From assembly GCA_023213395.1 (NCBI GenBank), contig CM041465.1, positions 168,585,741 to 168,649,740 of the forward strand: a stretch of DNA of 64,000 nt, read 5' to 3'. Source of the stretch: Cycas panzhihuaensis (lineage: Eukaryota; Plantae; Cycadophyta). This document shows, one piece after another, positions 9,848 to 62,599 of the stretch (within the stretch, counting starts at the first letter, position 1; each line of letters starts with the position of its first letter). Both the position numbers and the translations under genes were made by a program. Below the pieces are notes generated by a model. That model did no database searches. It worked only from the letters and a program-made list of their open reading frames with translations, and was not told the DNA's origin.

Positions 9848-9854
9848 CCCTCTC

Positions 9855-14632: not shown

Positions 14633-14644
14633 GCCCTCATACCA
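14633..14644 (-). promoter_or_regulatory. PBS (tRNA-iMet type) of copia A
   Basis: Minus-strand TGGTATGAGGGC directly after the LTR. Confidence 0.8.
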
Positions 14645-14815: not shown

Positions 14816-14832
14816 GAGCAAGTAGGCCTAGG

Positions 14833-22752: not shown

Positions 22753-22753
22753 C

Positions 22754-22771
22754 TGGCAACCGTACTAGGGA
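22754..22771 (+). promoter_or_regulatory. PBS of Tat1 (tRNA-Arg-like)
   Basis: TGGCAACCGTACTAGGGA, 1 nt after the LTR; resembles the TGGCGAC...CTGGGGA tRNA-Arg PBS type of Tat/Ogre elements. Confidence 0.75.
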
Positions 22772-23009
22772 CCTGCTAGTAAAGGAACCAGTCTAGTTTC
22801 CTTTGGATTAGCATTGCCTTTATCTTTTGGCATCCCTTCCCTGATTCATTGGGAAACCCCCAACATCCTTTACTTCACTTGTCTCTCTTCCTTCTAGAGT
22901 CTTAGGAGGAACTTGAATGAGATAATTCTCTCATCGTTTACAAGGTCTCCCTCCTTCTTTGGAAGAGTCACCTTATTCTCCCTTTCCCTTGTTTGATTTT
23001 GAATCAACC

Positions 23010-29000: not shown

Positions 29001-29749
29001 TCCCTCTATCATCTATTGCTAAAAAGACCATAACCACTTTCATCTACCAGCATATTATCTATTAATTTGAGGTTCCAGATGTCCTAATAATAGATAATGG
29101 TGCTCCCTTTTGTAATAAGGAGATGGATGAACTTTGTAGGAAGTTTAGAATATCCCACAAAACCTCTTCTCCTTATTATCCCTTGGTTAATAGACAAATT
29201 GAATCTTTTAACAAAACCCTTATCAACATCTTAAAGAAAACTGTGGCTTAATCCCAAAGAGATTGGTACCTCCAGCTTCCTTTTACTTTATGGGCATATC
29301 ACACTTCCATTTACATGGCTCCAGGGATGACCCTATTCTCCCTCATATATGGGACCAAACTGGTCCTCTCCTTGGAAGTTAAAATCCTTGATTTATGTGT
29401 TTCTCTTTAAGGTCTCATCGATGAGGAGTCTTATCATCAAGCTTGCCTCCTCGACCTTAAAGCCTTGGATGAGAGATGCTTGATGGTATACCAAGAAAAC
29501 CTCACCTCCAAGGCTAGGTCATAAATGACATATAACAAATGTCTTCATCCTTGCCCTCTAAATCCTAGGGACCATGTCCTCAATCTTGAATATCTCCATG
29601 GTTGCTTATCCAAATTTAGGCTTAAATGGATCAATTCTTTTGCCATTCTTAAGAGCCTCGACAATGGTTCCTATAGGATAGTGACCCTAGAGGGTCTCAA
29701 ATTTGAGAAAGCTGTGAATAGTAAATTCCTAAAGATGTTCTATGTGTGA
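23010..29749 (+). pseudogene. gag-pol: Tat1 gag-pol (start approximate)
   Basis: PKFYG...DDALKWFYYLP (gag), CSIHGDCFHKDSQY (CX2HX4HX4C knuckle), IMDNDSSINAIP (PR), MPFGLKN...FMDNMM (RT), LHECHNNICEGH and WPFSQWGLD (INT), end AVNSKFLKMFYV*. Confidence 0.92.
24338..24509 (+). repeat. 86-bp tandem duplication inside Tat1 gag
   Basis: GCCCTTAAGTGGTT...TATTTTAATA(C/T) starts at 24338 and again at 24424. Confidence 0.9.
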
Positions 29750-30796
29750 CCCTTTCTACTCCTAAACAGGATAGGCACACCTCTCTCTCACTCTAAAATG
29801 AGCCTAAACTACCACTTTAAGTGCATCATCATTTCTCCTAGTCACAAGTGTAATGATGGTTTAAAGTAGCCCTTCATCCTTTTGACTTTGTTACTTGTAT
29901 TGCATCTCTTATCTCCCTCCCGAGGGTGTCCTCTCCTTTCCTAGTTGGGTAAGCAAACCTCCTTCACTTCTGAGTATGGAGTCACTCCCCAACTATGGCT
30001 TTTTTTTGCTTGGGTATCCACACCCCCTAGTCATTGCTTCCTTTGCATATCTATTATGTTCTTCCTAATGAACATGTGTAGCACCTCCCTCCTAGTCTTA
30101 TACATATCCATCATCGACATATATGGTGATTATATATGCCTAATATAAGTGTGGTGTTGTATGGAAAGAAGCACGAATATCATCTACATATGATCTAATA
30201 ACAAAAGCCATATATAATAATTAACTAAAACTACCTAAATGCATGACCCCTTGTGCATCTGTACACCTATATCCATATGCATATGCTCATCTCTCTATGC
30301 ATCATATAAATAAATAAACTATATAATAGTAACGCAATAACATCATAAATCAATCACAATATCATCTTCATGTATCAAATGGGGTACCAATTATCCCTCA
30401 TCTATATATATACAAAGTTATACGATACAACAGAATCATATGGTATATCATCAGTTAGGCAATATAACTTAGGAAGATGGAATCCTTGCAGGGAGGAGTA
30501 CAATCATATGTTTAGATGTGCTAAAAGCTCCCTAGAGGTATGAAGCTTTCTTATCTAAAATCCACAACATATAATCTCCTGGATGCCATGCTCTCAAGGG
30601 GTGTCATCCCCTCATCTATGGGATCCCTCGCTGGGGGACCAGATATCTCCTAGGCTCATGTGGCATCATTGCGAGCTCCCTGCCTCACTCTCCTACTCTT
30701 GAGGTCTCCTTTAGGTCATTGTCATGGTATGTGATTGGTTGCATGATGACCTGGTGGCAATCTGCTCTACTAATTAATCGTATCTAACCTAGATAT

Positions 30797-30798
<2 letters not shown>

Positions 30799-30836
<38 letters not shown>
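30799..30836 (+). repeat. (TC)19 microsatellite
   Basis: Read directly. Confidence 0.9.
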
Positions 30837-30839
<3 letters not shown>

Positions 30840-31239
30840 ACTCCATGGAGTCTCTCCTCCAACACAATAATCTGAATCCTGCTCTCTGCATCCTTGCTTG
30901 ATCCTCCTCCCTAGGCCTCCGGTCCTTATACCTAGCTCTATAGGATGCCTCCCTTAACCACTAGTTGGTCCCTCTCTTCCTATAGCCCATCCAAGGTGCC
31001 CTGCAGTTGGCTGACCCTTGCCTAAAGCTCTTGGGACTTTGCCACCTATATATCCATAACCCAAATCAGTAGGGTGAATGTTGTTATATGTGGCCCCACT
31101 GATCAGCGCTCTTCGCTAGCTAGGATGGGAGGATGCCCCTTCATATAAACCTGGGGGAATAACTTATATACTATCACCTCCAGTAGCCTTGCTATCTCTG
31201 CTACCCCTACTAAACCATGCATACTATATGTCAGTCAAG

Positions 31240-31278
31240 TATATATGTATGTGTGTGTGTGTGTATGTGTGTATATAT
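31240..31278 (+). repeat. Mixed (TA)/(TG) microsatellite inside predicted intron 2 of the antisense gene
   Basis: TATATATGTATGTGTGTGTGTGTGTATGTGTGTATATAT read directly. Confidence 0.8.
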
Positions 31279-33304
31279 AAAAGCATCAAAATCCAAATAA
31301 AACCATCTAGGGAAGTAGTAAATGATTGAAAGTACATTTAGTCAGGATAGAATCTCACCTCTTGGGATGATTGGATCCTCTACCTAGATGATCACCTCAT
31401 CTGCCATGGCTCCCCCTACTACTGCCTTTATCTCCTTGACCTCTGGCACTACCTTGCTTATCACCTAGGCTGCTAGAGCATCTCCACCCTCTAATCCCTC
31501 CTCTCCTAGGATCTCTCTATCTACGGAAGCTATTTCCACCTATACCTCTTCCACCATAGCCATCATTGTTGCTAGGGCTCTACTTGTAGCTCTCCCTCTA
31601 CCTATTGGTCCTAGTGGTCGCCTATTTCCTCCTGCTAATGTTGATGGACTTGCCTTATCTCTTGTAGCTCTTGATGGTCCTGTGCCATCCCCTCCATCTC
31701 CTCCATCATCGTCAACACCCTCATCATGTTCATCTCCTAGCTCTTTACCCTCATCATCACTTTCCTAGTGGATCACTTAATAAGGATCCACTGTATAGTC
31801 GATCAGGGTTAAGAGATCTAGCGATGTTGCTACCACCAATCGCTACACATGAACTAGGTTCTTAGCCTCTGTAAACCTCGTCTGCCACGTATGAACCATG
31901 GGAGCCTTAGCTAAGATGAGATGTGGTCCTCCTGGTAGTTCCACCACTCTGAAATGGTCAAAACAACAATAGTGGAATAGCGTGCAATAAGAGAAACCCC
32001 CTGCCCCAACTACTATATTTAGTTGAGTTATGGAATCAGGTTGGTTGCTATTAAGGTAGCCAAATCAAACCTCTATCCAGCCTTGCACCTCTTAATAGTG
32101 GTCATCTAGCCTCCTAAGATGTCCATGTAGTTCTATTTCTAGGATATCTAGAATAGAATAGTCAAAGTAATGAGTTTCCTTACACGAGGAACTCTAGATA
32201 AAACCATCGCCTAGACTGAGACTCCCCATCGATCTTATTACCCCTACCTTATAAAGAATTTAGATGCATCCCTATGGGTAGCATCTATGCTAGGTAGTAT
32301 GCTTAATAATGCTAGAATCCCACCTGATGATACACCCAGGATCCTCCTGATATCCCCATGTATGATAAATATATCTCACACTTGTAGGAGGTGAAATACA
32401 TGCCTCTGTCAATCCTAGTGTGAGATGATTTCAACTAGGAGGCACTAGTTGGATGCATACTATGGATTCCTAATGACCTTCAGAATCCTACAGTATCGTA
32501 GAGTCATTTGCTCCTACTATATCATCATCTCAATAAAACTCATCATCGCCATGCCTATATTCTTGTGGTCACCATGCCTATATTCTTAAAGTTATCAATT
32601 GTGAAAATAACCTGCAAATAAAAAAAAGCTAGTCAGAGATCCACTAATCCCCTCTACCATGTGCCATTCTCCCCTTTTAATGGTTGAGGCTCCATCAAGC
32701 TGGGTAGACTCATCCATCAGGGCATCTCTTCTCTTTTTCTCCTATCCAACATTCACCCCGTGCCAAACTCTATGGTACTGTAGATATTGATATGGGTCCC
32801 ACTAAAAAAAATTATATTTTCTTGGTGGCCATGCTACAAACTTCACGACATTGCGACATTTATCGTAAGGTCATGGATACCCCCCTAAAATGGGGGGTGG
32901 GGTGGCCTAAAAACTCAAAAGAAAAATCTTAAGTGGACCAAACTTGGCCCACTAGGACCAAGGCTACCTAATACCCTATTCCTCCCCTTCCCTGGGCCTC
33001 ATTTGAGTTCCAAGGGGTCTCGATCACCCATATGGGGCCTAAAATAAACTTTAAAAACTAAAAAAGTCCATTAAATAAAATTGATGAAATGAAATAGCTA
33101 GGGGATAGTCCACTCACTAGATCAGGCGTGATCGCTACCATCTTGTCTCCACGATCTCAATGGTTATTCTCTCTCCCTGATCCAATAGCCGGATCTCTCA
33201 TTGGATGCTCCCAAATACTGGCATAGCCTTGCTGCATAAAAGAAAGGGCTTCAGATCTCTCATGGGGGCCTATGAAAATGAATCCTATTTTCACCCTTCT
33301 CCCC

Positions 33305-33518
33305 TTTATATATGTGGGGTCCCCTAGGGGCACCACCTCCTTTCTCCTCATCGCGATAGCCCTCAGGATCATCTCCTTATCCTCACTCACTTTGTCTTTA
33401 GGGTCTGACCCTTATTTTGCTCCTATGGCCTTCATTTTACTCCTTTCTAGTGCATTTATGGCGATCCCTTTAGCCTCCTAGAGGCCCCTTGTGCCTTATT
33501 TTTTACATTGCTATAAAA
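33305..33518. promoter_or_regulatory. Putative divergent promoter region between the antisense PMD gene and sense aRH
   Basis: TATATAAA on the minus strand (33312-33305) and TATAAAA on the plus strand (33512-33518), pointing away from each other. Confidence 0.45.
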
Positions 33519-33700
33519 TGTGCCAATGTTTATACTCTTTTAACTTATTCCAGTATCTTGGATCTACTTTTCCCATTCGTTTGAGCCTTTAAGGCTCCTA
33601 GGGGAAGCCCCTCCTCCCTTCCAGGCCTCCATAGGCCCCTTTGTGACCCTAGGGGCTCTGAAGGAGCATACATACTAATCCTTTCTCACCCTTTCATCAG

Positions 33701-33769
33701 GTAAGCCTCCCTTGAGCCTAGTAGCCTACCCCTATGGCTCTCTTATCCTCACACAATTTATATTTACAG
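33701..33769 (+). other. Putative 69-nt leader intron upstream of the Tat1 aRH ORF
   Basis: CAG|GTAAGC donor, CTCAC branch-like motif, TATATTTACAG| acceptor, 103 nt before the ATG. Confidence 0.5.
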
Positions 33770-33872
33770 TTTTTTGAGCTATCGTAGCCCTGTCACTACC
33801 CCTTTCTTTTGCATCTTGACTTTACTGTCACTATCTCTTCTATCGCTTAACTCAAACTCTATTCTTTTTACT

Positions 33873-34295
33873 ATGGTATTACTCATCTTCACTGACAGAG
33901 GAAGTCAAGGCAACCCCAAACCTTTTGTAGCTACGTGGATCCTCTGTGATCCCTCTAGATATAACTATATGTATTTTAGAATCTTTCTACTCCAGGCTAC
34001 GAATAACAAAGATGATTACATAACTATTATTGAAGACCTTACCGATGCACTTCACTCTTACCATGGGCCTATCATCCTCTATTTTGACTCTCAGATTGTC
34101 ATGTCATAACTAACCCAGGTTTACTAAGTATGTTGCCCATGATTGAGAGCCCTTACTTCAACCACCAGGTCCCTTTTATCTTGCTTCTCTTTCATGGATG
34201 TTTGACACATTCCCCAATATCTTAATGTTAAGGCAGATGGCCTTGTATATCGCATCCTCAAGAATCATCTCCTTCTCTCAGATGACCCCTCCTAG
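33873..34295 (+). pseudogene. Stand-alone archaeal-type RNase H (aRH) of Tat1
   Basis: MVLLIFTDRGSQGNPKP...QATNNKDDY...YFDSQIVMS*L...HIPQYLNVKADGL fits the DG.SRGNPG / TNN.AEY / DSQLVV.Q / H+PR..N..AD.L pattern. One frame, 141 codons including the terminal stop; internal stops are all C>T explicable. Confidence 0.9.
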
Positions 34296-34778
34296 GTAGC
34301 CTAATAAGTCACTTAATCACCTAGGCTCTAGGATCATCCTTTCTTCTATTGCGATCTCTTCACACCTTTGAAAGTAGGAAACTAATGAGATTAAATTATG
34401 GTGACCACTAGGTTTATGTCTCCACTTTGTCCTTTATACTACCCGTGGCATGAGGCTCTTGCACTCTGATTCTCTACATGTACAGATCTTTGCTTATATT
34501 TATTTGTTGGTTGTGCTTATGACCTTGTATAATATTAATCTTACATGAGGGTGATAGGGGCAGTCCCCTCATCTCGTCATCCTTTTACACCAAACTCTTG
34601 GGTGACGTACAGGCAGCCCCTATGCTGCCCCTTCCTTTCCTTGTCCACGTGATCCACCACGACACCTACGACTCCCCTTGGATGATGATACTTTTTGCAT
34701 TGGTAGATGATACTAATCTTTTTATGTTGATAGCATCTGCCATCACCAGATGCTTCCAAGAGATGAAGCTCTATTGCT

Positions 34779-34788
34779 AAGGGGGCAA
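34779..34788 (+). promoter_or_regulatory. Polypurine tract of Tat1
   Basis: AAGGGGGCAA immediately before the TG of the 3' LTR. Confidence 0.85.
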
Positions 34789-37117
34789 TGTTTCTCAGCT
34801 ACTAAGAATGGATATGGACAACGTCTCTTAGGTAGGCATAGGTATATATCTCTATCCCTACTCCTCATTTACCTTAGGATGTGATGAGATGTTTGATGAT
34901 TATATTTTGTATGGCATTGTTATATGCATGGTTAAGATGCTTGGTTTGCCTACCCATTTTTGTTCCTATGACTATGATCTAGCTTATGACAACTCAGGAC
35001 CATCATCCTATGGCACTATATAGCCCCTCACGACACTTCCTCAACACTCTTAGGTACTCATGGGCCCCTGTGGCCCACCATTTATTCACTATTATCATTA
35101 TACATGATCCCTAACACCTTATTTTAGGCTTGATCATATTTGTATATATCATTCATATGTCATTGGGGCCTTTACTACCCTCTTTCACATATGTAAAAAG
35201 GTCTTACCGATGCCTAGAGGTCCTCTAAAGGCTTTACCAATCTAGTATACTACTCTGTTATGCCCTAAGACCCTTCTTTTGGGGGTCCCCTAGGCCTCCC
35301 TTTTATTTTTTCTTGTATTTTATTTACACTATGATAACATTTGCAGTACCATGACAAACTTTGTGGTGCCATGAAGTTTACCATGAGGTGATTGTCTATT
35401 GATCTTCGTGGTCTTGTAATGGCTAATTTCACATTTATTACAAAACTGACATATGGTAGACCATTGTTTCCTACTTAGAGAAAACCCTAATCACTTGGGA
35501 AACCTAATTTAGGTATAAAAACCCAAATCTAAGTTTATTTTACCTCTCTTGGCTCTCATATGAAAGGAAAAATGCCTCCTACCTGCACTTCTGGTTTCTC
35601 CTCCTATTCTTCTCTTCTCTAAGGATGAAACCCTAGAATGTAGGTCTGTACTAGCTCTTCTCTAATAGGTCTTCCTTCTATGGTACTCACTCCAATAGTA
35701 GCAAAAGTTTTCACAAGTTTTTTATCCTCATTCTTACCTCCAAAAAGGAGCCTTTCTTCACCTAACAAGAGGGGTCCTCATCTTTTCATTAGCACATGAG
35801 GTAACATCCATTTTACTTTAGTTTTTTGTGACTGTATCAAGTTTATTTCTTGTTGTTCTCCCCTTTAGCAAGTATATTTGGTATATATTTTCACTTATTG
35901 TAAGTTTTACATCCATCTTTATCTATTTTTAGGTGTCCAAAGGAAGGCAAGCCCTTCCTTCCTCCTTGATTGCACCTCCATACCCATTGGGTTCTTCATG
36001 GGAAACAAGTAAGTGGATTGTAGGATTCCTTTGAGAGGGAGAAAAGGAGTTCATAGCTAGGGTTCTAACCCTCACAACCATATCCTCCAAGGCATCCCCT
36101 TACCTCTCTTAGCTTTCCTACGTGATATCCATCTTGCACACCAAGAAACTCCTTAGGCCAGGGCTTCTATTGGTTATAGCATTTGTAGCCCCTTGCAACG
36201 CCTACAATAAACTCTTATACACATTATTTGGTAGTAAGTTTCTTTGTATATTTTTCCATTTCATGAGATTTCCATTTCCCTTGCATATCTTGTAAAAGTT
36301 ACAATATTATAACTTTTGTAACATTTATACTTTTTACAGTTTTACAACTTCTTAATCCTTGTAAGTTGTGTCACTTTTATTTGCTTAGAATTATAAACCC
36401 TCTCCTAACTTATTTCTTAGAGTACTCGAGCACATAATAGGTAGCTTATTTGAGGGAGCTATCCATTCTGAGGCTCTCCTTTCTCTCACCTTCAAAACCC
36501 CTCTTTTCCCCCAAATATTACTTAGAAACTTTTAAGTATATAGCGAGAAGATTGAGAAGCATATTGTTCCTTTTCTTTCATTACACTAAAGAAGTTTAGA
36601 TTTCATTTTGATGAGCATGTGTACACATAATTACATCCATATGCACATGCATATATATGTTATTGTTTGTTAAAAGGGTTTACCCACAAGGAAACTCTGC
36701 CTACCATAAGTAAGAAAGATTGTGTTGAAAGATATATATATCTCATTTACATTTGTTTTTCTTTGAAACTTTCCTTTAAAGTTCTTTTCTCTTTTGAAAT
36801 ACATTTCAAGGAAGCTAAGGAAGCCCTAACTATAGTTTTGTCCACAACACCAATCGTGGCTTATAACATAGGGTGATCAGTGAAAGGAAGATAATGATGG
36901 GAAAGAGTGGCACTCCATCAACTGGATTGTTTCTAGGTGCACTTCTTCCAACCTTCCTTTTCCTTCTTATCCTTTTCTTCCTCCCTTTCTCTCCTAAAAA
37001 GGAAATCAGTTGCGTTTATACATAGTTTACAATCATTTATTTTTTTTACCCACATCTATCTAAGGGAAAATATAAAGGAATATCACTCATATTTGCTCTC
37101 TTTATCTTTGCATTAGG
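34789..37117 (+). repeat. 3' LTR of Tat1, left part
   Basis: TGTTTCTCAGC..., collinear with 19533-21823; interrupted by copia C. Confidence 0.92.
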
Positions 37118-37761
37118 TGTTGGATATTGTGACAACAATATTTTGGGGCTAAAATTTTGGCATGTTTTCGGCGCGGTTTCCCCCTAATCTTTCTCGGGGG
37201 GTTCCAAGGGGGGCAGGAGCCCCCCTTGGCTAGGGGGTATGGGGGATGTGGAATGCCCCCCGCTAAGAGGGGGTTTGGGGGTGATAGCCCCCGACCCAAA
37301 AAATTAGCCCTGTAAACCTTATTAAATTGTAAAGAGAATCAGGGTTGTTTGATACAAATACCTTAGATTCTACGGCTGAGATTTATGCCTTAGATATTCC
37401 TCTCATGTAGCCCATTTTAGGGATTTTCTTATTATATTGTAATATAATGTAATGTACTGTGAAGAGGGCAGTGGCTGGTTGTTGTTCCAGAGAGCATTCT
37501 ACTACTGAGATGTACTATTTCTCCATTCTAAAGCAATAAATATTGATACCTTTCCTATGTGGATGTTTTCCTAGTACACTGCTAGGGTTTTACCACATTA
37601 TATTAGGTGCATATGTGATGTTTAGCTTGTATATTAATGTTATTGTATTATCTCTATTTTCAGAACTTGCTGTTTAAATCTTAGTTTTAATTCCTATAAC
37701 TAGTTGTAAAATAGTTCAGATCTTATGGTGGTTTAAGGTTTACGGCCTTGTAATTTCAACA
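37118..37761 (+). repeat. 5' LTR of copia C
   Basis: TGTTGG...TTCAACA, 644 bp. Confidence 0.95.
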
Positions 37762-37831
37762 AGTGGTATCAGAGACACATTTATTTTTTAACGAGTTTGT
37801 AAAGGTCTTGGTGTTGGCTTTTCTACACCAA

Positions 37832-40800
37832 ATGGTGAAACTAGTAGGTGCAAAGTTTGAGGTGAGAAATTCAATGGCAAGAATAACTTCGAGTTGTGGA
37901 AGCTGAAAGTGCATGATATTCTTATACAGCAGGGTTTGTACAAAGGCCTTGCATACAAATCAAAGAAACCCATACGGATGGACGATGATGATTAGGATGA
38001 CTTAGACAATAAGGTACTTAGTACAATATGACTGTGCTTGGCAGATGAAGTCTTGTTTAACATCACAGGGGAAGAGAAAACAGTAGGATTATGGACCCAG
38101 TTGGAAGGCATGTATATGAACAAATCAGTAATGAATCGAATCTACTTGAAGAGACAACTGTACTCATTACGAATGATGGAAGGTATAAAAATTGTTGACC
38201 ATTTAAATATTTTTAATACTCTTATTTGTTAGTTGACTAGTATCAATGTTAAAATTGAGGATGAGGACAAGGTTATTACCTTATTATGGCCATTACCCAA
38301 ATCCTGGGATAATATTATCATCTCAATTAGTTTTAGCACTACAAATGTATTGGATTATTATTCTATTGTGAGTGCTTTGCTAATGGAAGAAGTGCAAAGG
38401 AAATCTAGTTTTAAAACCTCCACACCAGAAGCCATGACAGTAAGAGGTAGAATGTTTGAGAGAGGACAAAACTCTAGGGATACATCAAGATCCAAGTCAA
38501 AGAGCAAAAAGAGTAAGCTCAGGTGCTGGCATTGTAATAAGATCGGTCACCTCAAGAAGGATTGTTACAAATGGAAGGAGTTCTAGAAAAAGGAAGATCC
38601 TGCCAAGGAGGCGAATCAAGTGGAGTCAAATCAAGGTATGGATGATGATGTCTTGGTTGCTTGTAATGTTTCTCATTATCACCATGACTGGTTATTAGAT
38701 TTAGATGCTTCGCACCACATGTGTCCACACAAGAGTTGGTTCTCATCATACCAACCTGTTGATGGTGGTGATGTGCTTATGGGAAATGAAGTTTCTTGTA
38801 AGATAGTGGGCATTGGTAGCATCAGAATTAAGATGTTCGATGGGGTAGTCAGAACATTAACTGAGGTTAGACATGTACCTGATTTGAAAAGGAATAAGAT
38901 TTCCTTGGGTGAATTAGATTCAAGTGGTTTTAAGCATATAGGTCATGAAGGAGTCTTAAAGGTGTCAAAGGGTGCCTTGGTTGTTATGAAAGCCTTAAAG
39001 AAAGGAAATCTTTATATTTTAGTGGGAAGTATAGATGTCAGCCAAGCAACGACAGCATCAAAGACTGTAGAAGATCCAGCTCAATTATAGCATTAGAGAC
39101 TTAGGCACATGAGTGAGAGAGGACTTAAGGTGCCGATAAACCATAAGTTGCTTCCTAACTTGCAGCTTTTAGATTTGACTTTCTGTAAACATTATATTTT
39201 TAGAAAGCAATGTAGACTCAAGTTTAAAGTAGGGAGTCACACTAGTAAAGGCGTTCTAGATTACATACATTCAGATGTATGGGGACCATCCCCTAAAATA
39301 TCATGTGGAGGATCATTGTATTATGTCACATTTATAGATGATTACTCTAGAAAGGTATGGGTCTATTTTTTGAAAAGGAAATCTGAAGTTTTCAGTGTGT
39401 TTAAGTAATTCAAGGCTCTAGTTGAGAATAGTACTGGTAAGTCAATCAAATGTTTAAGAACTGACAATGGAGATGAGTTCAACTCCTTGGAGTTTAAGAA
39501 CTATTACAGAGAAGCTGGGATTGAAAGACACAAGACCACTAGCTATACTCCATAGTAAAATGACATTGCTAAGTGCATGAATAAGACACTCTTAGAAAGA
39601 ACAAGAAGCATACTAAGTAATATAGGAGTGGAGTAGGGCTTATGGGCAGAAGCTGTTCAAGCAGCTTGCTATCTAGTAAACAGGTCACTAACATTTGCAA
39701 TAGATTACAAGATTCCTGAAGAGGTATTGACAGGACATCCATATGATTATTCAAATTTAAAAGTTTTTGGTTGTGATGCTTATGCCTTGACTGACAAAAG
39801 TAAATATTTAAAGTTAGACCCAAAATCGAGGTATATCTTTGTTGGTTATGGTGATAAGGATGGTGTGAAGGGATACAGGTTGTGGGATCCTACTGCCCAC
39901 AAAATCACCATTAATAGAGATGTTGTATTTGATGAATCTCCCCTTCTAAAATCAGACAGTGGAGAAGTTGAAATGGCCCAGGCGAAAGATGAACATCAAT
40001 AGGTCAAGTTTGAAACCCAGCCATTTTTAGAATTAGAAGAGCAGGAAGATATTTTTGAAGATGAATATGCAACATATTTATAAGAGTATGTGGATAGTCC
40101 TTTGCCAACAGTTAGAAGATCTACACGAGTCAGTCATCCACCTAACAGTTACAACCCATCTACTTCTATTACTTTGGTTTTTAATGATGGTGAGCCCACA
40201 TGTTATCAGGAAGCAGTAGATGATATCCATGGTGAGAAGTAGAAAAGGGCTATGTAGGAAGAGATAGATGCTTTGAAGAAAAATAATTCATGGGACTTGG
40301 TAGAACTTCCACATGGCAGGAAGATTATTGGTTACAGGTGGGTTTTAAAAAAGAAAATAGATGTTGATAGAAAGGTTAACAAATATAGGGCAAGATTGGT
40401 GGCTAAAGGCTATGTACAGAAAGCAAGTATTGACTTTCTTGAGATCTTTTCCCCAGTTGTCAAACTTGTTTCAATTCAAGTGCTGTTAGCATTAGTAGCT
40501 TCTCTTGATTTGGAGCTAGAGCAGTTAGATGTAAAAATAACTTTTCTACATGGAGATTTAGATGAAGAGATCTATATGGATCAACCAAAAGGGTTTGTAC
40601 AGGATGGTAGAAAAAGACTTATTTGTAGGATCAAAAAATCATTGTATGGCCTAAAGCAATCACCTAGGAAGTGGTACAAGAAGTTTGATGCCTTCATGGA
40701 GAGCTAAAATTTTAAAAGAAGTGAGTATGATCATTATGTTTACTTTAAATTTATGGATAATGGCTTATTCATTATCTTGGTACTATATATTGATGACATG

Positions 40801-41441
40801 CTAGTTACAAGCAAAAGCATGGAAGAAATCAATAAGCTAAAGGCTCAACTAGCTAGGACTTTTGACATGAAGGATCTAAGAGCTGTAAAATAAATCCTAG
40901 GCATGGAGATACATAGAGACAGGAAAAGTGGTAAGCTATGGTTATGGTAATCAGCTTTGGAGGTACAAGTAATCAGGTTTGTGGATATATTGATTTAGAT
41001 TTTGCAGGAGATTTAGATAAAAGAAGGTCTACTTCAGGTCATGTTTTCACTCTTGCAAATGGTACAGTTAGTTGGATGTCCAAATTATAGAGCACAATTG
41101 CATTATCAACAACAGAAGTTGAATATGTTGTTGTAGCACATGCTTGTAAAGAAGCAATCTGGTTACAGGGTCTATTAGTTGATCTTGGAAGGAGATGGAA
41201 AAATATAAAGGTATTTTGTAATAGTCAAAGTGCCATTTATTTAGCCAAGAATCTGATTTATCATGGTAAAATAAAGCATATTACTCTTAAGTACCATTTT
41301 GTTAGATAGGTTGTGGAAGTAGGTGGAGTGGCACTTGAGAAGATTCACACTAATCAGAATTATGATGATATATTCACAAAACCAGTACCAGTAGAGAAGT
41401 TTAAATGGTGTTTGACTTCTCTTGGCTTGCAAAAAAGATGA
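37832..41441 (+). pseudogene. gag-pol: copia C gag-pol
   Basis: EKFNGKNNFELWKLK, CWHCNKIGHLKKDC (knuckle), WLLDLDASHHM (PR), HSDVWGP...FIDDYSRKVWVY (INT), RARLVAKGY, QLDVKITFLHG, SLYGLKQSPR, YIDDML (RT). Internal deletion near 40945. Confidence 0.95.
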
Positions 41442-41489
41442 TGAAGGGTCCATAAAAGGTATCGGGTAAATTATTATCAAGGTGGAGAT

Positions 41490-42134
41490 TGTTAGATATT
41501 GTGACAATAATATTTTAGGACTAAAATTTTGGTATGTTTTCGGTGTAATTCCCCCCCCAAATCTTTCTCGGGGGGTTCTAAGGGGGGCAGGAGCCCCCCT
41601 TGGCTGGGGGATGTGAGGGGTATGGAACACCCCCCACTAAGAGGGGGTTTAGGGGCAATAGCCCCTGACCTAAAAATTAGCCCTATAAACCTTATTAAAT
41701 TGTAAAGAGAATCAAGGTCATTCAATACAAATACCCTAGATTCTACAGCTAAGATTTATGCCTTGGATGTTCCTCTCATATAGCCCATTTTAGGGCTTCT
41801 CTTATTATGTTGTAATGTAATGTAATGTACTGTGAAGAGGGCAGCAGTTGGTTGTTGTTCTAGAAAGTATTCTGCTACTGAGATGTATTGTTTCTCCATT
41901 TTAAAGCAATAAAGATCAATATCTTTCCTCTGTGGGTGTTTCCCTAGAACACTGTTAGGGTTTTACCACGTTACATCTGATGCATATGTGATGTTTAGCT
42001 TGTATATTGATGTTATTGTATTATCTCTATTTTTAGAACTTGCATGTTAAATCTTAGTTTCAATTCTTATAACTAGTTGCAAAATAGTTCAGATCTTGTG
42101 GCGGTTTAAGGTTTAAGGCCTTGCAATTTCAACA
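41490..42134 (+). repeat. 3' LTR of copia C
   Basis: TGTTAG...TTCAACA, a copy of 37118-37761. Confidence 0.95.
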
Positions 42135-42913
42135 GTAGGAACAAGAAAAGGAACTTGGGCTTTCGATATCCATCCTTCTTCCATGCATTATTAAGGAAAG
42201 TTTCATAGTTCATCCATACTCTTCCTCTTCTTTGCACCCTCTTTCCCCCTTCATTTAATTCCTTTTCTATTGATAAAGATAAAAAAGAGAGAGGGAGAGG
42301 ATAAAAGGAGAGAGAGTGAGAGTATCTTTTGAGTTGCACTTACTTAGCATTGATACTTTATATTATTACACTATCTTTAAGCAAGCCTAAGACACTACCC
42401 AAACCCTTAGTATACTTAGTCCACTTGCTTTGTTTAACCTAAACCCTAGAGGTATTCCTTTAGATGATCTTTAGTAAGATTCACCATTAGTCTTGTCTTT
42501 TTCTTGGATTTCATTTCTGTATACCAAATCCCTTTCACATCTTTCAACTAATTATTTCCCTCTCTTTTCTATAAGTCCCTACCCTATTAGGGCTTGCCTC
42601 TTCTTTTCCCCTTTTTTAGGGAATAAAACTTTGATCCTTCCTCTCCTTCCTTCACCTATTAGGATAGGAGAGTCCTTCCTTAGGCTACTTGGTAAATTAA
42701 GGATGCCCTTGTCGAACTCAAATCTGAGAAGGTACCTGCCAAAAGGGAAAGTCTTGTGTGTTATTTGTGGGTATCTGAACTTGTGTTTGGATGTATAAAT
42801 AGCCTTTGTGGTTGACCTATTCCCTTGCCCTAAAGGACCTTTAAGCCTCTGGCATAGTAATAGTGTAGGCTTAATATCCTTATTTTTAGTGACCCCCCAT
42901 AGGTGTACTTCTA
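42135..42913 (+). repeat. 3' LTR of Tat1, right part
   Basis: Collinear with 21983-22752; ends GTACTTCTA (decayed GTGCTTCCA). Confidence 0.9.
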
Positions 42914-53699: not shown

Positions 53700-56600
53700 T
53701 TGTCAGTTTAATCGAGAAATTTTATCATCTTATGTTGAATCTTCAGAACTTCACACTCGTGACACTTATGTTTATCCTCCTAAACATTCAACTTAGCTAT
53801 ATAAGATATCTGTGGAGCAAGGATATCTTGAACCCTCTTATTATCATGGTGATCCTTCTTTTGTAGATCCTTCTTTTACATAAGAAGAACCACCTCCTAT
53901 TTAAGCACACTCATTATACTTTGAGTTGGTTTTCACTAGGATTCCTACTCCACTTTACATGCGTAGTTATTAAGATCCATTTTATCTAGAGACTCATACC
54001 ATGATATCCTCACCACAACATCATCAATTTGATCCTTTGTGTAAGGAATATGAGCCAATTCAAGTTGAGTCTTCAATTGCCCCTGATGTCATTTAATCTC
54101 CCTGTCCTTCACACCTTCCTTCACTAAGACCTTTGTCAAGACCTTACTCTCCTCTTTTAGAGGAGGTGGAAGATCATAAGTCAACCTATTCATAACCTCA
54201 TCACTCTCCTTCTAGGCTACAAGTTCAGATTCATTCTCCTCATACCATACCTTCTACATATGAAGGCACCTCTACTATTCATATCCATAGCGACCCTAAT
54301 TCCTCTCATGTGCCTACTTCCAATTAAGTTGTTTTACCTTCACCAAGCCTATGACCTATCCATTCCTATACCACTAGGGTCCTCCTCTCATCCTATATCA
54401 TCCATGACTTAATTACCACTTTATACATCACATACAGTTTTTCCATAGGGCATTAGACCTCGTGCACATTCTCCTAAAGTGTCTAATATGGCCCCTTCTT
54501 CTTAACATATTTCCTATACTTATTCTGTCTATCCTTATACTCTAATTAGTTAATCTCAAGCCTTAAGATTTCCTAACCCTATTTCTTCCTCACATATTCC
54601 TAGACCTACTTCACAACTAGCTCATTTTCTTATGTTTAATCTAGTCTTTCTATAGCATCATATGCTTGAAACCAATCCTATGGTTAACCTTGTAGCTTGG
54701 TTTAATCCCCCGTCTACTTTCCCATCTTATACCATTTCCCAATAACAATTACAACAACCTATTCCTTCAACTGTTATGTATCCATAATCCTTGCCTCAAC
54801 ATCCTACTACATTAAGGCCAAGGAGACCTTTCCTTGATTACATGAAACCTTTATGTTCATGTGAGACACTTTTATCTCATATTCCTCCTTTCCTTCTTGA
54901 GTTACCTAAATTTTTTGATGACACTTCTTAGGATCTCACTTCTCATATACAGGCATTTGTACTTGCTTATGTATATTTTATATTATATAATTACATCATG
55001 ATATTCTTGTTCCCTAAATTACTTCAAGATGATGCATTGAAGTGGTTTTATCAACTTTTTTTAGATTCTATCATTTCGTTCCAATAATTAGTTGATTCTT
55101 TTCTCAACTATTTTGATGTAGTAAGACCATTCGAATTAGGCATCAAGTCCCTTTTATCCATCAAACAAAACCATGATGAGACCTCAAGAGACTTTGTGAG
55201 GAGATTTCAAGACTAGGTACATGCTTGCCATTCATGTCTTGATCCTAGTCTATTATTCGATCGTTTTACTAATGCTTTGAAGCCACATGTACACCTTCAA
55301 GTCCTAAAGCTTGGCCATCAAACTTATGAAGAAGCTATTAATCGTTGCTTAGCTTTGAAAACATTCAAGAGTTAAGCAAGTATCAAGAAGGTTGAAAAAC
55401 CTATTTCCTCTAAAGAAATAGTTCAAACAATGAAGGCTTCCCATTCCAAACCTATCTATGATCACCTAATTTCTACTATCAAATCATTGAAGCATGTGAT
55501 CAACACTAAGTTGTATGTTGATAGTCCTTCTTAGAGCTAGCCCTTGCATGAGACTAAATTGATCTATCTTACTAATGGAAGAAAGAAATAAGCTCCTCCT
55601 CCTCCCTTCATAAAGAAAAAATGGTGTTTATATCATCAAATAGACACTCATGATAGAAGTGAGTATCTGACCATTCAAAATACTATTTAAAATATGAATG
55701 TCTAATCAAACTGCTCCTCTAAGTCATCCCAAGATCAAATGATCCATAAGGATTCTTTTCATCAACATAATAAGAAAGTAAATAAAGATGATAAAGGTAA
55801 GGAAAAGTAAGCCTAAGATGATGAAGGTGAACCTTTGAGTTCTAATTCATTGAAGAAGACAACCACTCCTCCAAATCTTTCAACAAAATAAACTAGCAAT
55901 TAATCTTGCCCACCTTCTAAAAGTGGTGACACCTAGAGAATGATAAAAATTATGGAGATAACAAAGAGTGTAGGTCCATCTAAATCACCTAATGTTTTGA
56001 TGGTGAGGAATCCTAACTCTTTACCTCTAGTACCTCCATATCCCATCAAGTTTAGGTCCATTCCCTCTAATATAAAGGATGGATCATTCTCTTTATTGAG
56101 GAGTTAAAGACTATTCTAACAGGTATTTTAGTTATTGATTTGTTGAAGTATTACCCTAAGCAATGTTATCTCTTATTTGATGCATTGGGAGTTCTTGTCA
56201 TAGTCTTTTCATCTACTTCCATACTTTCTCTTGACCTGGTTACCTTGTCTAGTCATTCTACTCACGTGCCAAATGATATACCTCTATTCTATATTGAGAT
56301 TATAAAGGATAATATTAATATTAAGTGAGTTATTATTGATAAGGGATCATTTGTTAACATAATCCCTCTTCACCTTATAGAGGATTTAGAGATCTCAGTT
56401 ATTGATCCATATGAGTGGATTTGCTAGGGATACAACAAGAATTAGAAAGTACCTCTAGGTCAAGTCACTCTCCCTCTTAAACTAGAAGAAAAGATAGTTC
56501 TCACTAAGTTAACTATCATTGATCTTGACTTGGAGTGTAATATTCTATTGGGTAGACTATGGATTACCCAAATATCAGTGGTTTATTCCTCCCTCATTGG

Positions 56601-59600
56601 CTGAACTTAGGTTTATCCATGAGGGACAATTAAAAATTCTGAAGCAAAAACTGAAACCCATCAAACAGTCAGTCTCTCATATTGAGATATTCTTTGAACC
56701 TAGTGAATCATCGAACTCTTTAGAGTACTTCTTTCAATCACTTGGCCTATATGAATACTTTACCATTGAATCTCCTTCTACTCATTAAGAAGTAAAGGAT
56801 ATGGATTTGGTTGAGATTATTCCTTTGTCATTAGGTTCCTCATCCATTCCTTATACTTTAGGTCTAATTGATCAGTCTTTAATTTCCTTTTCTTCTCATA
56901 ACAAAGAAGTAACTTCTCATTCTATCATATCTTATGGAGAATTGTCTGTGAGTAGAACTATCAGTATGGATAATTCAATTCCCATTGAGACCCACTTTTC
57001 ATACATTTTATATTTTCCCTCGATGGAAAATAGTTTGGTTCCTTCCTTTACTAATCTTTCATCAAATACTTATTTGACTTTTGTTACACATGATTTGTAT
57101 GTTGATGCTCCATAACTCTTCTCTCAATTTTCTTTCTTTACTATGTGGTTTAATAGATATGAGAAGAAGATGTTGTTGCATCAACATCTAGGCTTAGAAT
57201 AAGGTAGCGAGAGTATCAATTCACATAGTACACTACAAGGTAATCAAACATCCTCTATTAGAGTAAGGGAAGAAAACTTAGTGTCCACTATTTCTTTTCA
57301 TTCTTATTCTCTTGTGGATCTTTTCCCATCCTCTCTCATCATATTGTCTTTATTTGATCAAGAATTTCATTTGCATCATCAAGAATTTAATCAATATTTT
57401 ACTTTGACTTAGAAGTTCATTAATAGGTCTATTTATTTTTCTCATGTTTCTTTAATTATTGAGTTTATTCCTACTTGTCCAAACTCTTTGGTTGATTCCC
57501 CTTCATGTTTTAGGTCTTTCATTTGATCTACTAATTTACCTAGAAATATCCTCCTTGTCAATCTCTTCCACTTAGGTTATTTTGAGAATGATGAGGTAAT
57601 TTTAGAGCATCTAGTAGGTTCATTTCCTAGGCTTCCTGATGGGCATCATAGGTTGGGTTTTTCAAAAGTAATACAATATCATGCACCACTAATTAATGGT
57701 TCCTAACCCCAGGAGTCAATTTCCTTAATAGAGTCTAATCCTCCTCACTTTGAAGAGGGAAATGCAATGCTTATGGACTAGATTATTAATGTAGACCTAG
57801 AGATGGAGGATACCCCTAAAGTTATCAAATTAGGAGCTAGTTGTACTCCTTAAGAGATCATTTAGTTTAAGGATCTCTTTTGTGAATTTTACTTGGTTTT
57901 TGTTTGGGATTATAAAGATATGTATGACCTTGATCCCCAAGTCATCGAGTACAGTATTATAGTAACTTTTGGTATTAAACCAAAATAGAAAAAATAATGT
58001 CCTATTCATCTATATCTCTCCATTACTATTAAACAAGAAGTAGAGAAGTTGTTAGGGGTTGGATTCATTAAGAGTCTTGATTATTCTCAATGAGTCTCTA
58101 ACATAGTTCCTGTGGTAAAGAAAAATAGCTCAATTCAAATTTATATCAATTTTTGAGATATTAACAAAGCATGCCCTAAAGATAATTTTCCTCTCCCTTT
58201 TCTTGATCAGATTTGGGACCAAACAACTAGTTTTGAGGTGATGTCTCTTATGGATGGTTTTTTAGGTTGTAATCAGATCTCTATCTCACCTTGTGGTCAT
58301 CACAAAACTGCTTTCACTACTCCTTGGGGAATTTTTATTTATAAAGTCATGCCTTTTGCATTAAAGAATGCTAGTACAATATATCAAAGAGCCATGGTTT
58401 ATATTTTTCATAATTTAATTGGTAATATCATTACTGCATATTTAGATGATATGCCTGCTCTTCCTCATAGAAGATATGATCATCTGTGTGACCTTAGAAC
58501 AATCTTTAAAAGGTGTAAGAAGTATTACTTATGCCTAAATTTGTCTAAATATGTTTTTGCTATGAAGTCAAGAAGAATTCTAGGAAACATTTTTTCCTAT
58601 GATGGGATTAGAATTAATCCTGATAAGATGAAAGCAGTTGTTAATATGCCTCCTCCCAAGAGCCAAAAGTAAATTAAATCTTTTCTAGGTAGGCTTGGTT
58701 TCTTTAGGTGTTTTATTACTAATTTTGCTTTAGATGCAAAGCCTATCATAAATCTTTTAAAGAAAGATGTTGAGTTATGATGGACTCCTCAAGTTCAAGA
58801 GTCCTTCAATAAGCTAAAGTAAGCCTTAGTTCTAGCACTTGTCCTTGTCTCGCTAAGGTTCAATAAACCATTCATTCTATATACTTTAGCTACAAAGGAA
58901 TCATTAGTAGGAATGTTGGTACAAGAGGATGGATTTGATAAAGAATGAGCTATTTATTTCATTAGTATAATTGTGATGGTTGCTAAACTTCATTGTCTTT
59001 TTCCTAAAAAAGAGTATCTTGTTATAATCTTTTCTACTAAGAAGTTATACCACTACCTCCTTGGGAATAGGGTCCACCTCATTATTCAATAAAATCCTAT
59101 AAGATACTTTCTTACTAAATCTAATCTCATCAGATGATTAAGTAAGTGGTCGTTATTGCTTTAAGAGTTTGATTTATAAGTGGTCAATAGAAAATCTAAG
59201 AAAGTCATGATTATCTTAAAGATCATGGCTGATGCTCATCTTCCTAATCTTGCCAAGTAACCTATTGATGATTCTCTTCTAGATGAGCATGCCCTCCATA
59301 TCTAGGTCATCCCTTTTAGTGATCCATAGTATAGAGAGATAAGGTCATATCTTCATGATCAATCTTTCCCTCCTCTTTCTACCTTGAAGAAGAGAAGATG
59401 AATTTGGATTACTGTTAGGCAATACCTTTTGCTTGATGATATACTCTATAAATGTTCTTTTGATGGGATCTTGTTAAAATGGCTTTCTTCTAATGAAATA
59501 CTAGTTGCCTTAATAGAGTCCTATGAAGGAATGTATAGTAGATATTTTGGTGGTCGATTAATAGCCCAATGCATTCTTTGTATGGGTTATTATTGGCCTA

Positions 59601-60569
59601 CCTTGTTTAAATATGCTCATTCTTATATCCAAAAATATCAAAAATGTCAATCTCATGCAACCTTGATATATAAGCCTACACAAGAAATAAAGTTGATAAT
59701 TTCACCTTAGGCTTTTTCCCAATGGGGTTTCAATCTCATTGGTTAGATCTTTCTAACATCATCCAATGGGCATAAGTTCATAATAACTACAACTAAATAC
59801 TTTACAAAATAAAGTGAAGTTATCCCATTAGTTACTGCTATTGGAAAGATTATTACCATATTTATCTTTTAGCATATAATTTGTTAATTTAGAGTGTCAA
59901 ACGTTATTATTATTGATAATGGGACTTCATTTTGTAATCCCCATGTCAATGATCTATGTAATAAATTCCATATCACTTATAGACTATCAGCCCCTTATCA
60001 CCATCAGGTGAATGGTTGGGTTGAAGCTTTTAACAAAATCTTAGCTAAAATTTTAGCTAAGACAATTATTATATCTCATAGAGATTGGCATGCTCAATTA
60101 TTTCCAACATTATGTGCTTATGGAACCTCCATTAGAAATTCCACAGGCATGATTCCATTTTCTCTCATTTATGGTGTTGAGGTCATTCTCCCATTAGAGG
60201 TTGAGATTCCCTCTTCACATGTCTCATTGAAGGAATTTACTGATGAAGAGTTCCAAAGAGAAGCACATCTCTTGGAACTAGAAAATCTATATGAGACTCA
60301 TTTACAAGCTTTACAAAATAATATGCCCTCTAAGGCTAGAGTTTAGATTGCTCATGATAGGTAGCATAGACCTAAGAGGTCCACTATTAGTGATAAAGTG
60401 TTAAAATTAGAGTATTTATATGATAAACTATGTAAGTTTTTCTCAAATAGATTGGTCCTTTCTAATAATTAAAGATTTAAATAATGGGACTTATAAAATT
60501 TCAACAATGGAAGATCTAGAATTTAGAAAACCTGTCAATTCTCAGTATCTAAGGAAGTTCTATGCCTAG
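53700..60569 (+). pseudogene. gag-pol: Tat2 gag-pol (start approximate)
   Basis: PKFF...QDDALKWFYQL (gag), KWCLYHQIDTHDRSEY (knuckle), IIDKGSFVNIIPL (PR), SLMDGFLGCNQI...VMPFALKNA...YLDDM (RT), IIIDNGTSF...QVNGWVEAFNK (INT), end YLRKFYA*. Confidence 0.9.
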
Positions 60570-61557
60570 CAACACTCATCCTTACCTCGATAATAAAGAT
60601 AAACTATGGCCCTGAATCTTTCTCCTTACATAATGAGCTAAAACTATGGGTAATTTCTTTTCTTTGGTCTATTCTTGTCTTTTCTATAGTTATATTTTGC
60701 TTTCATTAAAGGTCCTACTCATGATTATATAAGTCTTTTGCTCTTTCTAGCATTTGCATTGATTGTGAGTGCTCTCTTATGATATTTTTATGTTCTTATG
60801 TTTTGAGTTATGTATTGAAGGGAGAATTTAGGCCCTTAACTTTATCACGTTTTTGTCTTTGGAAGAGGGATATTTTTGTCATCTTTAAATATTTTATCAT
60901 TGGTTGAGAATATACTTTCATTTGCTAGTACTTCACCTTGAGGATTCCTTCTTGGTTATATATCACCTACTATTTTCTTTTAATTGCTTTTGTTATCCTT
61001 GGTTTATTATATCTATCTTTTGAAGTATATACTTATTCTACCATCTTCTTTTTACATTTAGAGACACTATGATTTTGATCTCCTAAGGAGATTAGTCTCT
61101 TACATCTTAGATTCTATTAAAAATGATAAATCCTTATTGAATAAAAAAGTTTCATAATTAGATAATTATAATTCCCTTCTTGTAAAAAAAATAAAGAGTG
61201 AAAGTGCAAGCAACAAAAAAAAAAGAGTAAAGAAAGAAAAGAAAAGTAAAAACAAAAAAAGTAAAAGAAAGTATATCATTATCATCCCCTTATAATTTAG
61301 GGTAAGTCGCATGATAGTTTCATCCTTACTTATCCATCTATAGGTCAGGTTCATTTGGATGAATCATTTAGGATTTTTGGGTCTAGTTACTTGGGTGACA
61401 CATTTTGTTAGTATTGACCATCAGCATCCTAATTATGAATTTTCTTTTCTTCACCATAGTCATAATTAATTTCATTAATTACCATCTCCTTATCGACTAA
61501 TTCCCATACTTTCCTTTATTGATCATATTGTCTCTAAATTTTGGTCATATTTTTCCC

Positions 61558-61959
61558 ATAGCATTGAGTATATTCACTGATGGAGGTAGTAGAGGTAACC
61601 TAAGACTATCTGCTTTTGCTTGGGTGATTTATGACCAATTAGGAAATCCTCTCCTCTCTACTTGATCTTTTATAATTAGGGCAACTAATTATGAAGCCAA
61701 GTATTTTGCTATTATAAGAGCCTTATCTAATATTTCTCACATTTACTTTAGACCCATTATTATATATTCTGACTCTCAAGTTGTAGTCTATTAGTTAGTT
61801 GGAATGTGTAAAATGCACTCACCATGACTCCTCTTTTATCATCAAGCTTCATTATTGTTATCATTATTTTTATCAGTTACCATCTAGTATATCCCTTATT
61901 CTCTTAATGTTGAGTCTGACACTCTTATTTCCTCTATATTAGATGATGACTTTCGTTGA
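61558..61959 (+). pseudogene. Stand-alone archaeal-type RNase H (aRH) of Tat2 (start codon decayed from ATG to ATA)
   Basis: (M)ALSIFTDGGSRGNLRLSAFAWVIYD...ATNYEAKY...YSDSQVVVY*L...YIPYSLNVESDTL. One frame, 134 codons including the terminal stop, ~1 kb after the pol stop. Not in the ORF track. Confidence 0.9.
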
Positions 61960-62038
61960 CTTTTACCTTTATAGTTAAGGGCACTTCACTCTAGAATAAG
62001 TATAAACTACCACTTTGAAATGAGTATAAACTTCCACT

Positions 62039-62558: not shown

Positions 62559-62599
62559 ATCTCCTCCTTAATGGTCATCATCAACAATGTCTTCTCTAT

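What the first reader, a model, noticed from the sequence alone, without database searches (positions are those of the whole stretch)
61302..61959. A second, divergent Tat family repeats the same stand-alone aRH architecture
Seen: Tat2 has an aRH ORF (FTDGGSRGN...ATNYEAKY...SDSQVV) 1 kb after its pol stop. It has a GG|GTAAGT donor at 61302, a CCTAAT branch-like motif and a TTTCTTTTCTTCACCATAG| acceptor ending at 61459, 98 nt before the start (103 nt in Tat1). The surrounding DNA is not obviously alignable to Tat1, yet the donor/acceptor/~100-nt/start layout is kept. Inference: the expression mode is under selection.
Basis: partly seen in the sequence, partly recalled or inferred. Interest (0 to 1): 0.8.

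Follow-up and report, generated by a model that had tools for sequence, protein, structure and literature searches.

The report
Decayed Tat retrotransposon, separate RNase H
This is a dead copy of a known kind of plant jumping gene that keeps its RNase H enzyme as a separate small gene; that gene was likely read from a shorter, possibly spliced RNA, but the splice signals seen here are only weakly supported and were not seen in RNA.

Summary
The motifs are at the stated coordinates. The aRH is a real archaeal-type RNase H remnant 988 nt after the pol stop. It is not an open ORF: it has no ATG and four internal stops.

The layout is published as Tat structure #3 / TatIII ('post-integrase', separate ORF) of Pinaceae, Cycas and Ginkgo. 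How that ORF is expressed is stated there as open.

The splice argument is weaker than claimed:
- Acceptor-like sites occur every 100-130 nt in these spacers, so a 98 vs 103 nt match arises by chance about 20% of the time.
- Tat1's acceptor is weak, and a stronger one lies 172 nt upstream of its ATG.
- In related copies the donor reads GC rather than GT in 58% of depth.
- The donor-acceptor distance is not fixed.

What survives: a conserved start position, an ATG-free pyrimidine-rich leader in both families, a donor-like G|G(T/C)AAG in both (chance about 0.3-0.5%, window chosen after the fact), and an invariant 30-nt block ending at the Tat2 donor. No RNA evidence could be obtained. Verdict: new member of a known kind, with a plausible, testable but unproven spliced subgenomic mRNA.

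The parts
54827..55402 (+). Tat2 gag remnant
   Evidence: tblastx 44-46% to Tat1 24131-24792; that Tat1 region carries Pfam Retrotrans_gag
57817..60569 (+). Tat2 pol remnant (RT, native RH, INT); stop ends at 60569
   Evidence: RVT_1 E=7e-15 at 58157-58672; 57% nt to Tat1 pol over 2769 nt; INT end and stop
58860..59300 (+). native (gypsy) RNase H remnant; the first catalytic Asp position holds another residue (motif position recalled, approximate bounds)
   Evidence: read-through with X; degeneration of native RH in all aRH-bearing Tat structures is reported in PMC10508981
60570..61557 (+). 988-nt non-coding spacer between pol stop and aRH: 13 ATGs, 18/26/24 stops in the three frames
61273..61302 (+). 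pyrimidine-rich block ending in an acceptor-like AG at 61300, directly before the donor; 0 of 30 places vary at >=10% among laid relatives, against 16 of 45 next door
   Evidence: Fisher p=9e-5; block chosen after seeing the data, and alignment-seed bias is possible
61302..61307 (+). donor-like GTAAGT; +2 is C in 58% of relatives' depth; +1 and +3..+6 vary <10%
61348..61396 (+). block inside the presumed intron with much higher laid depth than its flanks (7,000-18,000 vs 100-1,700); small hairpin, not significant (z=-0.59)
61428..61433 (+). branch-point-like CCTAAT
   Evidence: kept in the loose-end summary of run X2, not of X6
61441..61459 (+). pyrimidine tract and acceptor-like TAG; AG varies <10% in relatives, changes inside the tract (61441-61444) stay pyrimidine
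   Evidence: invariance of 3 sites is expected 69% of the time
61460..61557 (+). 98-nt leader, 47% T, without ATG or AG; one stop in the aRH frame at 61498
61558..61959 (+). decayed stand-alone archaeal-type RNase H (133 codons plus stop); no start codon in this copy; internal stops at 61663, 61792, 61825, 61885
61960..62032 (+). short 3' remnant; relatives continue with other sequence after 62032, so this copy is cut here and no 3' LTR was found
   Evidence: loose ends behind 62032 in 174/152/175 contigs; no LTR pair by blastn
33670..33769 (+). Tat1 counterpart: branch-like CTAAT, pyrimidine tract and CAG ending 33700 (strong acceptor-like site), donor-like GTAAGC at 33701, weaker acceptor ending 33769
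33873..34295 (+). Tat1 decayed stand-alone aRH with ATG, 4 internal stops, about 4.1 kb after its pol stop
19533..42913 (+). Tat1 whole element; LTRs about 84% alike (K2P 0.17), 3' LTR split by a copia element at 37118-42134, 4/5-matching target-site duplication

Best explanation
This is a decayed, 3'-truncated Tat LTR retrotransposon of the known post-integrase type, whose archaeal-type RNase H lies as a separate small gene about 1 kb behind pol and was likely translated from its own start codon on a shorter RNA, probably made by splicing into an acceptor in the pyrimidine-rich leader. SHOWN: separate position; closed frames and upstream ATGs in the spacer; RNase H identity; a Met at the same column across family members; an ATG-free leader in both families. 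INFERRED: a subgenomic mRNA is needed, because scanning past gag, pol and 13-99 further ATGs is implausible; removing the short donor-acceptor segment would delete the last upstream ATGs (61311, 61359, 61435 in Tat2; 33734 in Tat1); the weak or GC donor would leave most genomic RNA unspliced; the free protein would supply RNase H activity that the degenerate native domain lacks. NOT RESOLVED: whether the RNA starts in the 5' LTR (long splice, perhaps to the acceptor-like AG directly before the donor) or at an internal promoter.
For: The spacer is closed in all frames and ATG-rich. Met stands in the same column in Tat1 and in 4 of 4 Logan-derived family proteins aligned (three begin there, so gene-caller bias applies, P0091 has it internally). 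Laid relatives mostly differ from this copy at its missing start codon (66, 90 and 94% of depth, 3 of 3 DNA runs). All ATGs in the last 250 nt before each start lie inside the presumed intron. A donor-like site 60-200 nt before the acceptor in both families has chance 0.003, or 0.005 allowing GC. Donor +1 and +3..+6, the acceptor AG and the pyrimidine character of the tract are kept in 2 of 2 runs. Precedent: splicing makes subgenomic RNAs in Ogre, EVADE and BARE1 (passages of PMC12786077); env-class plant elements are 'transcribed and spliced' (title only of Vicient 2001, seen in a reference list).
Against: No spliced form was seen. The 98/103 match has chance 0.19-0.23. Tat1's 103-nt acceptor scores only 0.60 pyrimidine, and a stronger one lies at 172 nt. 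Donor +2 is C in 58% of relatives; GC donors are about 0.8% of protein-coding introns in human and mouse (PMC7242645 passages; no plant figure obtained), and C>T is among the commonest changes in these repeats, so the GT may be decay. Invariance of the splice sites has low power: 0.69 for the acceptor and 0.48 for six donor positions by chance. ATG-free leaders alone have chance 0.08 and 0.25. The donor contexts of Tat1 and Tat2 do not align above shuffles (15 vs 14.2 +/- 2.7). The donor window and consensus were my own recalled heuristics, chosen after the fact. Only 2 families were compared, and only Tat2's relatives were examined.
Confidence: 0.45

Rival explanations
1. An internal promoter in the spacer makes an unspliced short aRH mRNA. 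The conserved pyrimidine-rich blocks are promoter or 5'UTR elements, and the splice-like motifs are incidental.
For: The invariant block 61273-61302 and the high-depth block 61348-61396 are not explained by a simple intron. TATAAAA lies at 33512 in Tat1. Leaders are T/C-rich.
Against: TATA-like hexamers occur 2.9 times per kb in the window, and none lies at a matching distance in Tat2. A start upstream of 61311 would leave three upstream ATGs unless they are spliced out.
Confidence: 0.25
2. The motifs are chance products of a C/T-rich sense strand plus methylation decay. aRH is made from the genomic RNA by internal initiation or reinitiation on the U-rich leader.
For: Acceptor-like sites occur every 103-129 nt in both spacers. 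The strand is C-over-G skewed along Tat1. The donor is GC in most relatives. The leaders show no significant structure (z -0.21 and -1.11).
Against: A donor-like hexamer at a usable distance in both families is uncommon by chance (0.003-0.005). No internal-entry mechanism is shown.
Confidence: 0.2
3. Splicing removes the spacer and joins pol in frame to aRH, giving a Pol-aRH fusion. This would reconcile the 2015 description of aRH as the C-terminus of Pol with the separate genomic ORF.
For: In Tat1 the aRH frame is open from 33705 through the leader. P0091 has an open 37-aa extension. Ogre joins gag-PR to pol by an intron (PMC4408406 passage).
Against: Tat2 has a stop in the aRH frame at 61498, after the acceptor. 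The Met position is conserved, and the leaders show no conservation. My donor pattern found no site at the end of Tat2 pol.
Confidence: 0.1

Closest known systems
Tat structure #3 ('post-integrase'; clusters Tat H in Pinaceae, Tat I in Cycas and Ginkgo), Biryukov & Ustyantsev 2023 (PMC10508981), Prokopeva et al. 2026 (PMC13468544); TatIII of Neumann et al. 2019 (PMC6317226) and lineage III of Ustyantsev et al. 2015 (PMC4408406)
   Same: gag-PR-RT-RH-INT followed by an archaeal-type RNase H in a separate ORF in the 3' region; degenerate native RH. The 2023 text words it as 'upstream of pol'; the 2026 paper defines structure 3 as downstream of the integrase.
   Different: [quoted passage not shown] The copy here is dead and truncated. 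Cluster H or I was not tested by a tree.
Spliced plant LTR retrotransposons: Ogre (gag-PR/pol intron), EVADE and BARE1 (short gag mRNA)
   Same: Partial splicing of an LTR element's RNA gives a second mRNA (passages).
   Different: Those introns lie in or between gag and pol and are shown by experiment. Here the candidate intron is in a non-coding leader behind pol and is not shown.
env and env-like ORFs behind pol (retroviruses, insect gypsy, Athila/Bagy-2 group)
   Same: A third sense ORF after pol, read from a spliced subgenomic RNA (recalled; the Vicient 2001 title was seen, but that paper and Wright & Voytas 2002 are not held).
   Different: The product here is a soluble RNase H needed for reverse transcription, not a membrane protein. 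A local donor lies only 69-158 nt before the acceptor, unlike the single long env splice.

Membership tests
Tat structure #3 / TatIII | Ty3/gypsy domain order gag-PR-RT-RH-INT | tested here: met
   Pfam gag and RVT_1 hits, collinear tblastx with Tat1, RH and INT read-through; PR placed by similarity only
Tat structure #3 / TatIII | additional RNase H of the archaeal type | tested here: met
   RVT_3 E=1.8e-13; 6 PDB matches, RNase H or RNase-H-like; named top hits are ribonuclease HI family; no tree built
Tat structure #3 / TatIII | aRH downstream of INT in a separate ORF | tested here: met
   988-nt spacer closed in all three frames
Tat structure #3 / TatIII | degenerate native RH catalytic core | tested here: inconclusive
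   first Asp position replaced in all three Tat-like copies (motif position recalled), but the copies are decayed throughout
Tat structure #3 / TatIII | RT falls in cluster Tat H or Tat I | not tested
   no reference RT sequences were available as tool outputs
Tat structure #3 / TatIII | LTRs, 5-bp target-site duplication, tRNA-Arg/His primer site | tested here: inconclusive
   Tat1 has LTRs and a 4/5 duplication; Tat2 is truncated and no LTR pair was found; primer site not tested
spliced subgenomic (env-slot) expression | junction seen in RNA | tested here: inconclusive
   no RNA holder listed; the one run guessed to be RNA laid 0 contigs
spliced subgenomic (env-slot) expression | acceptor conserved beyond background | tested here: inconclusive
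   AG <10% variable in 2 of 2 runs, but expected 69% of the time; cross-family distance match at chance level
spliced subgenomic (env-slot) expression | canonical GT donor fixed in the family | tested here: not met
   C at +2 in 58% of depth in both runs; a GC donor is not excluded

The most novel reading that the evidence does not exclude
Post-integrase Tat elements share a conserved splicing cassette, an acceptor directly abutting a weak GT/GC donor followed by a short leader intron. It produces a subgenomic mRNA for a free RNase H subunit that works in trans. These elements would then use the retroviral env slot to express a replication enzyme, which answers the published question of how a separate aRH functions and could let aRH-less relatives such as the third element in this window borrow it.
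Probability: 0.3. Interest if true: 0.62.

Novelty: new member of a known kind. Interest (0 to 1): 0.33.

Why it matters
The architecture adds nothing new. If the splice model holds, it answers a stated open question (PMC10508981): how a retroelement whose own RNase H has degenerated uses an RNase H encoded outside pol. It would be a case of a reverse-transcription enzyme supplied as a free subunit from a subgenomic RNA, and it gives exact junctions to look for in gymnosperm long-read transcriptomes.

Tried and rejected
- Host genome: none is held, so copies could not be collected from an assembly.
- Protein searches: a word-based search with Tat1 aRH gave 0 of 20 candidates; with alignment A3, 4 of 119. 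The HMMER scan listed 150 of 7092 hits; of the first 38 printed most look microbial or algal, and I took P0014, P0025, P0039, P0086 and P0091 as plant-element-like by eye.
- Locus scans: viral contigs gave 0 of 104 stretches and 5 of 66; metagenome contigs gave 80 loci kept of 171. None of these 85 loci has an RT or INT match, so all were dropped. Alignment A4 was too variable to scan with.
- RNA: no RNA holder listed, and run X24 laid nothing. This is no evidence either way. Tat1 was never laid on any run.
- A GTAAGCC motif in the third element's 3' region looked similar to the two donors but does not align above shuffles; rejected.
- RNA structure in 5 of 5 leader stretches: none significant (z from -1.11 to 0.93).
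- Stop read-through or frameshift from pol into aRH: rejected, because the spacer is closed in all frames.
- Earlier scan findings: 3 look-ups, nothing.
- Literature: searches listed no paper on splicing or transcripts of a separate Tat aRH. The word 'splic' is absent from PMC13468544, and I saw no mention in the whole main text of PMC10508981. Subscription papers are not covered, and the supplement of PMC13468544 could not be read. bioRxiv 2025.03.14.642691 and PMC1769492 gave nothing usable.
- aRH vs RT tree congruence was not run (too few elements); PMC10508981 reports the aRH tree as unresolved.

Full report
1. What is in the window. The window is a nest of old LTR retrotransposons. Tat1 spans 19533-42913. 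Its LTRs are about 84% alike (K2P 0.17), its 3' LTR is split by a copia element, and it has a 4/5 target-site duplication. Tat2 has gag near 54.8-55.4 kb and pol ending at 60569. It is cut at about 62032, where related copies continue with other sequence. A third Tat-like element lies on the minus strand. A profile search of all six frames finds exactly two aRH domains, at 61564-61950 and 33870-34268. Tat1 and Tat2 are divergent: RT 52% and INT 50% aa, pol 57% nt; aRH 38% aa.

2. The observation. Two corrections apply. The Tat2 aRH has no start codon and four internal stops, so the 'start' was inferred. The inference is right for the family: Met stands in that column in Tat1 and in 4 of 4 family proteins aligned, and most laid relatives differ from this copy at that codon (66, 90 and 94% of depth). 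Second, the donor-acceptor distance is 158 nt in Tat2 and 69 nt in Tat1. The domain is an archaeal-type RNase H. The spacer is closed in all frames and holds 13 ATGs; Tat1's holds 99 in 4.1 kb.

3. Is the layout more than chance? I used simple recalled splice rules, not a trained predictor. Acceptor-like sites occur every 103-129 nt in both spacers. Sliding a pseudo-start through each spacer gives a distance match within 5 nt in 23% of 20,000 trials at the threshold that admits Tat1's site, and 19% at the next. At the strict threshold the chance is 2.7%, but Tat1's site is then not called. Each element has three or four candidate acceptors within 300 nt of the start, and in both the 'donor' is directly preceded by another acceptor-like AG (33700, 61300), which in Tat1 is the stronger one. 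The donor is the less common part. G|GTRAG occurs 26 times on the + strand, so finding one 60-200 nt before the acceptor in both elements has a chance of about 0.003, or 0.005 if GC is allowed. That window was chosen after the fact. The leaders and the donor contexts do not align above shuffles.

4. Related copies. No host genome is held, and the locus scans returned no plant elements. I therefore laid assembled contigs of public DNA runs on Tat2 at 80% likeness. On 61273-61480, 714 and 803 contigs were laid from 2 runs, and the full list of variable places was shown: 24 of 208 at 10% or more.
- The donor's T (61303) reads C in 58% of depth in both runs, and the loose-end summaries of further contigs agree. 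Positions +1 and +3..+6 do not vary.
- The acceptor AG does not vary, and changes in and just before the tract keep or add pyrimidines. Both invariances have low power (0.69 and 0.48 by chance), and sites near the end of the stretch may be biased by alignment seeds.
- The branch-like motif is kept in one run's loose-end summary and not in the other's.
- Many contigs (48 and 66) diverge after 61396, and one has 40 letters in place of 7, so the intron length is not fixed.
- The 30 nt before the donor show 0 variable places, against 16 of 45 next door (p=9e-5; post hoc).
The family therefore has either a GC/GT-polymorphic donor with otherwise good consensus, or no donor at all, with GT arising by C>T change. 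GC donors exist but are rare (0.8% of protein-coding introns in human and mouse; PMC7242645 passages). Tat1's relatives were not examined. No RNA holder was listed, which is no evidence either way.

5. Mechanism. Shown: aRH is outside pol, cannot be reached by read-through, and has its own conserved start. Literature: native RH is degenerate in all aRH-bearing Tat structures, so aRH had to be made. Inferred: a subgenomic mRNA. I rank splicing first (0.45) for three reasons: the donor-like site is present in both families; removing the segment deletes exactly the last upstream ATGs; and partial splicing is documented in Ogre, EVADE and BARE1. The rivals are an internal promoter without splicing (0.25), chance motifs with internal initiation (0.2), and a spliced Pol-aRH fusion (0.1). 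Where the RNA starts is unresolved, and how a free aRH enters the particle is not addressed by any evidence here.

6. What is known. PMC10508981 (whole main text read; supplement searched and part 2 of 3 read) defines structure #3, aRH in a separate ORF, in conifers, Cycas (68% of its aRH-bearing Tat elements) and Ginkgo, and leaves its function open. PMC13468544 (abstract and passages; supplement unreadable) calls it post-integrase and notes conflicting reports on whether it is part of pol. PMC6317226 (passages and one supplement row) and PMC4408406 (passages and section 6) call it TatIII / lineage III. PMC12786077 and PMC1142308 were read as passages. Vicient 2001 and Wright & Voytas 2002 are not held; the env-splicing comparison is recalled. 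Seven searches listed no paper on splicing of a separate Tat aRH, within the limits of the library. The host is likely a gymnosperm, inferred from the published distribution alone.

7. Verdict. The architecture is known, and two such families in one window are unsurprising. The splice idea addresses a real open question and names testable junctions, but the ~100-nt match is at chance level and the GT donor is not fixed. Interest 0.33; new member of a known kind. The novel reading has probability about 0.3 and would merit about 0.62.

Noticed in passing
window 44461-42919 and 19532-16608, minus strand: A third Tat-like element, interrupted by Tat1, is closer to Tat2 in pol (62% nt) than Tat1 is (57%). 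Its native RH looks degenerate, yet no aRH is found anywhere for it. Either aRH was lost or cut away, or such elements depend on aRH in trans. Its LTRs were not found.
   Followed up: partly
window ~15220-14950, minus strand: A frameshifted remnant of a small sense ORF (about 90-100 codons) in the third element's 3' region, after a T-rich tract; not RNase H by profile; identity not tested.
   Followed up: partly
window 33700-33706 and 61300-61307: In both elements an acceptor-like AG abuts the donor (CAG|GTAAG in Tat1, TAG-G-GTAAGT in Tat2), the form of a zero-length or 1-nt exon known from recursive splicing (recalled). It may be chance, since donors often follow AG.
   Followed up: partly
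window ~31300-32200, minus strand: An acidic, glycine-rich read-through stretch in Tat1's spacer, possibly the remnant of the antisense extra ORF reported for lineage III; not searched against Pfam.
   Followed up: no
window 61348-61396: A 49-nt block with far higher laid depth than its flanks, so probably shared by a wider set of relatives; its hairpin is not significant.
   Followed up: partly
window ~61990-62035: Short tandem GAGTATAAACT-like repeats after the aRH stop, variable in number among relatives; similar words follow the pol stop of the third element.
   Followed up: no
window 62060-62850: Three reverse-oriented copia-type primer-site-like words (motif recalled) followed by what looks like an LTR with a purine tract on the other side, suggesting a recombined or tandem copia junction that cut Tat2.
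   Followed up: no
window 9707-14813 (minus) and 37118-42134 (plus): Two nested decayed copia elements, with matching terminal repeats of 84% (139 nt aligned) and 87% identity.
   Followed up: no
window 24338-24508: An 86-nt tandem duplication inside Tat1 gag.
   Followed up: no
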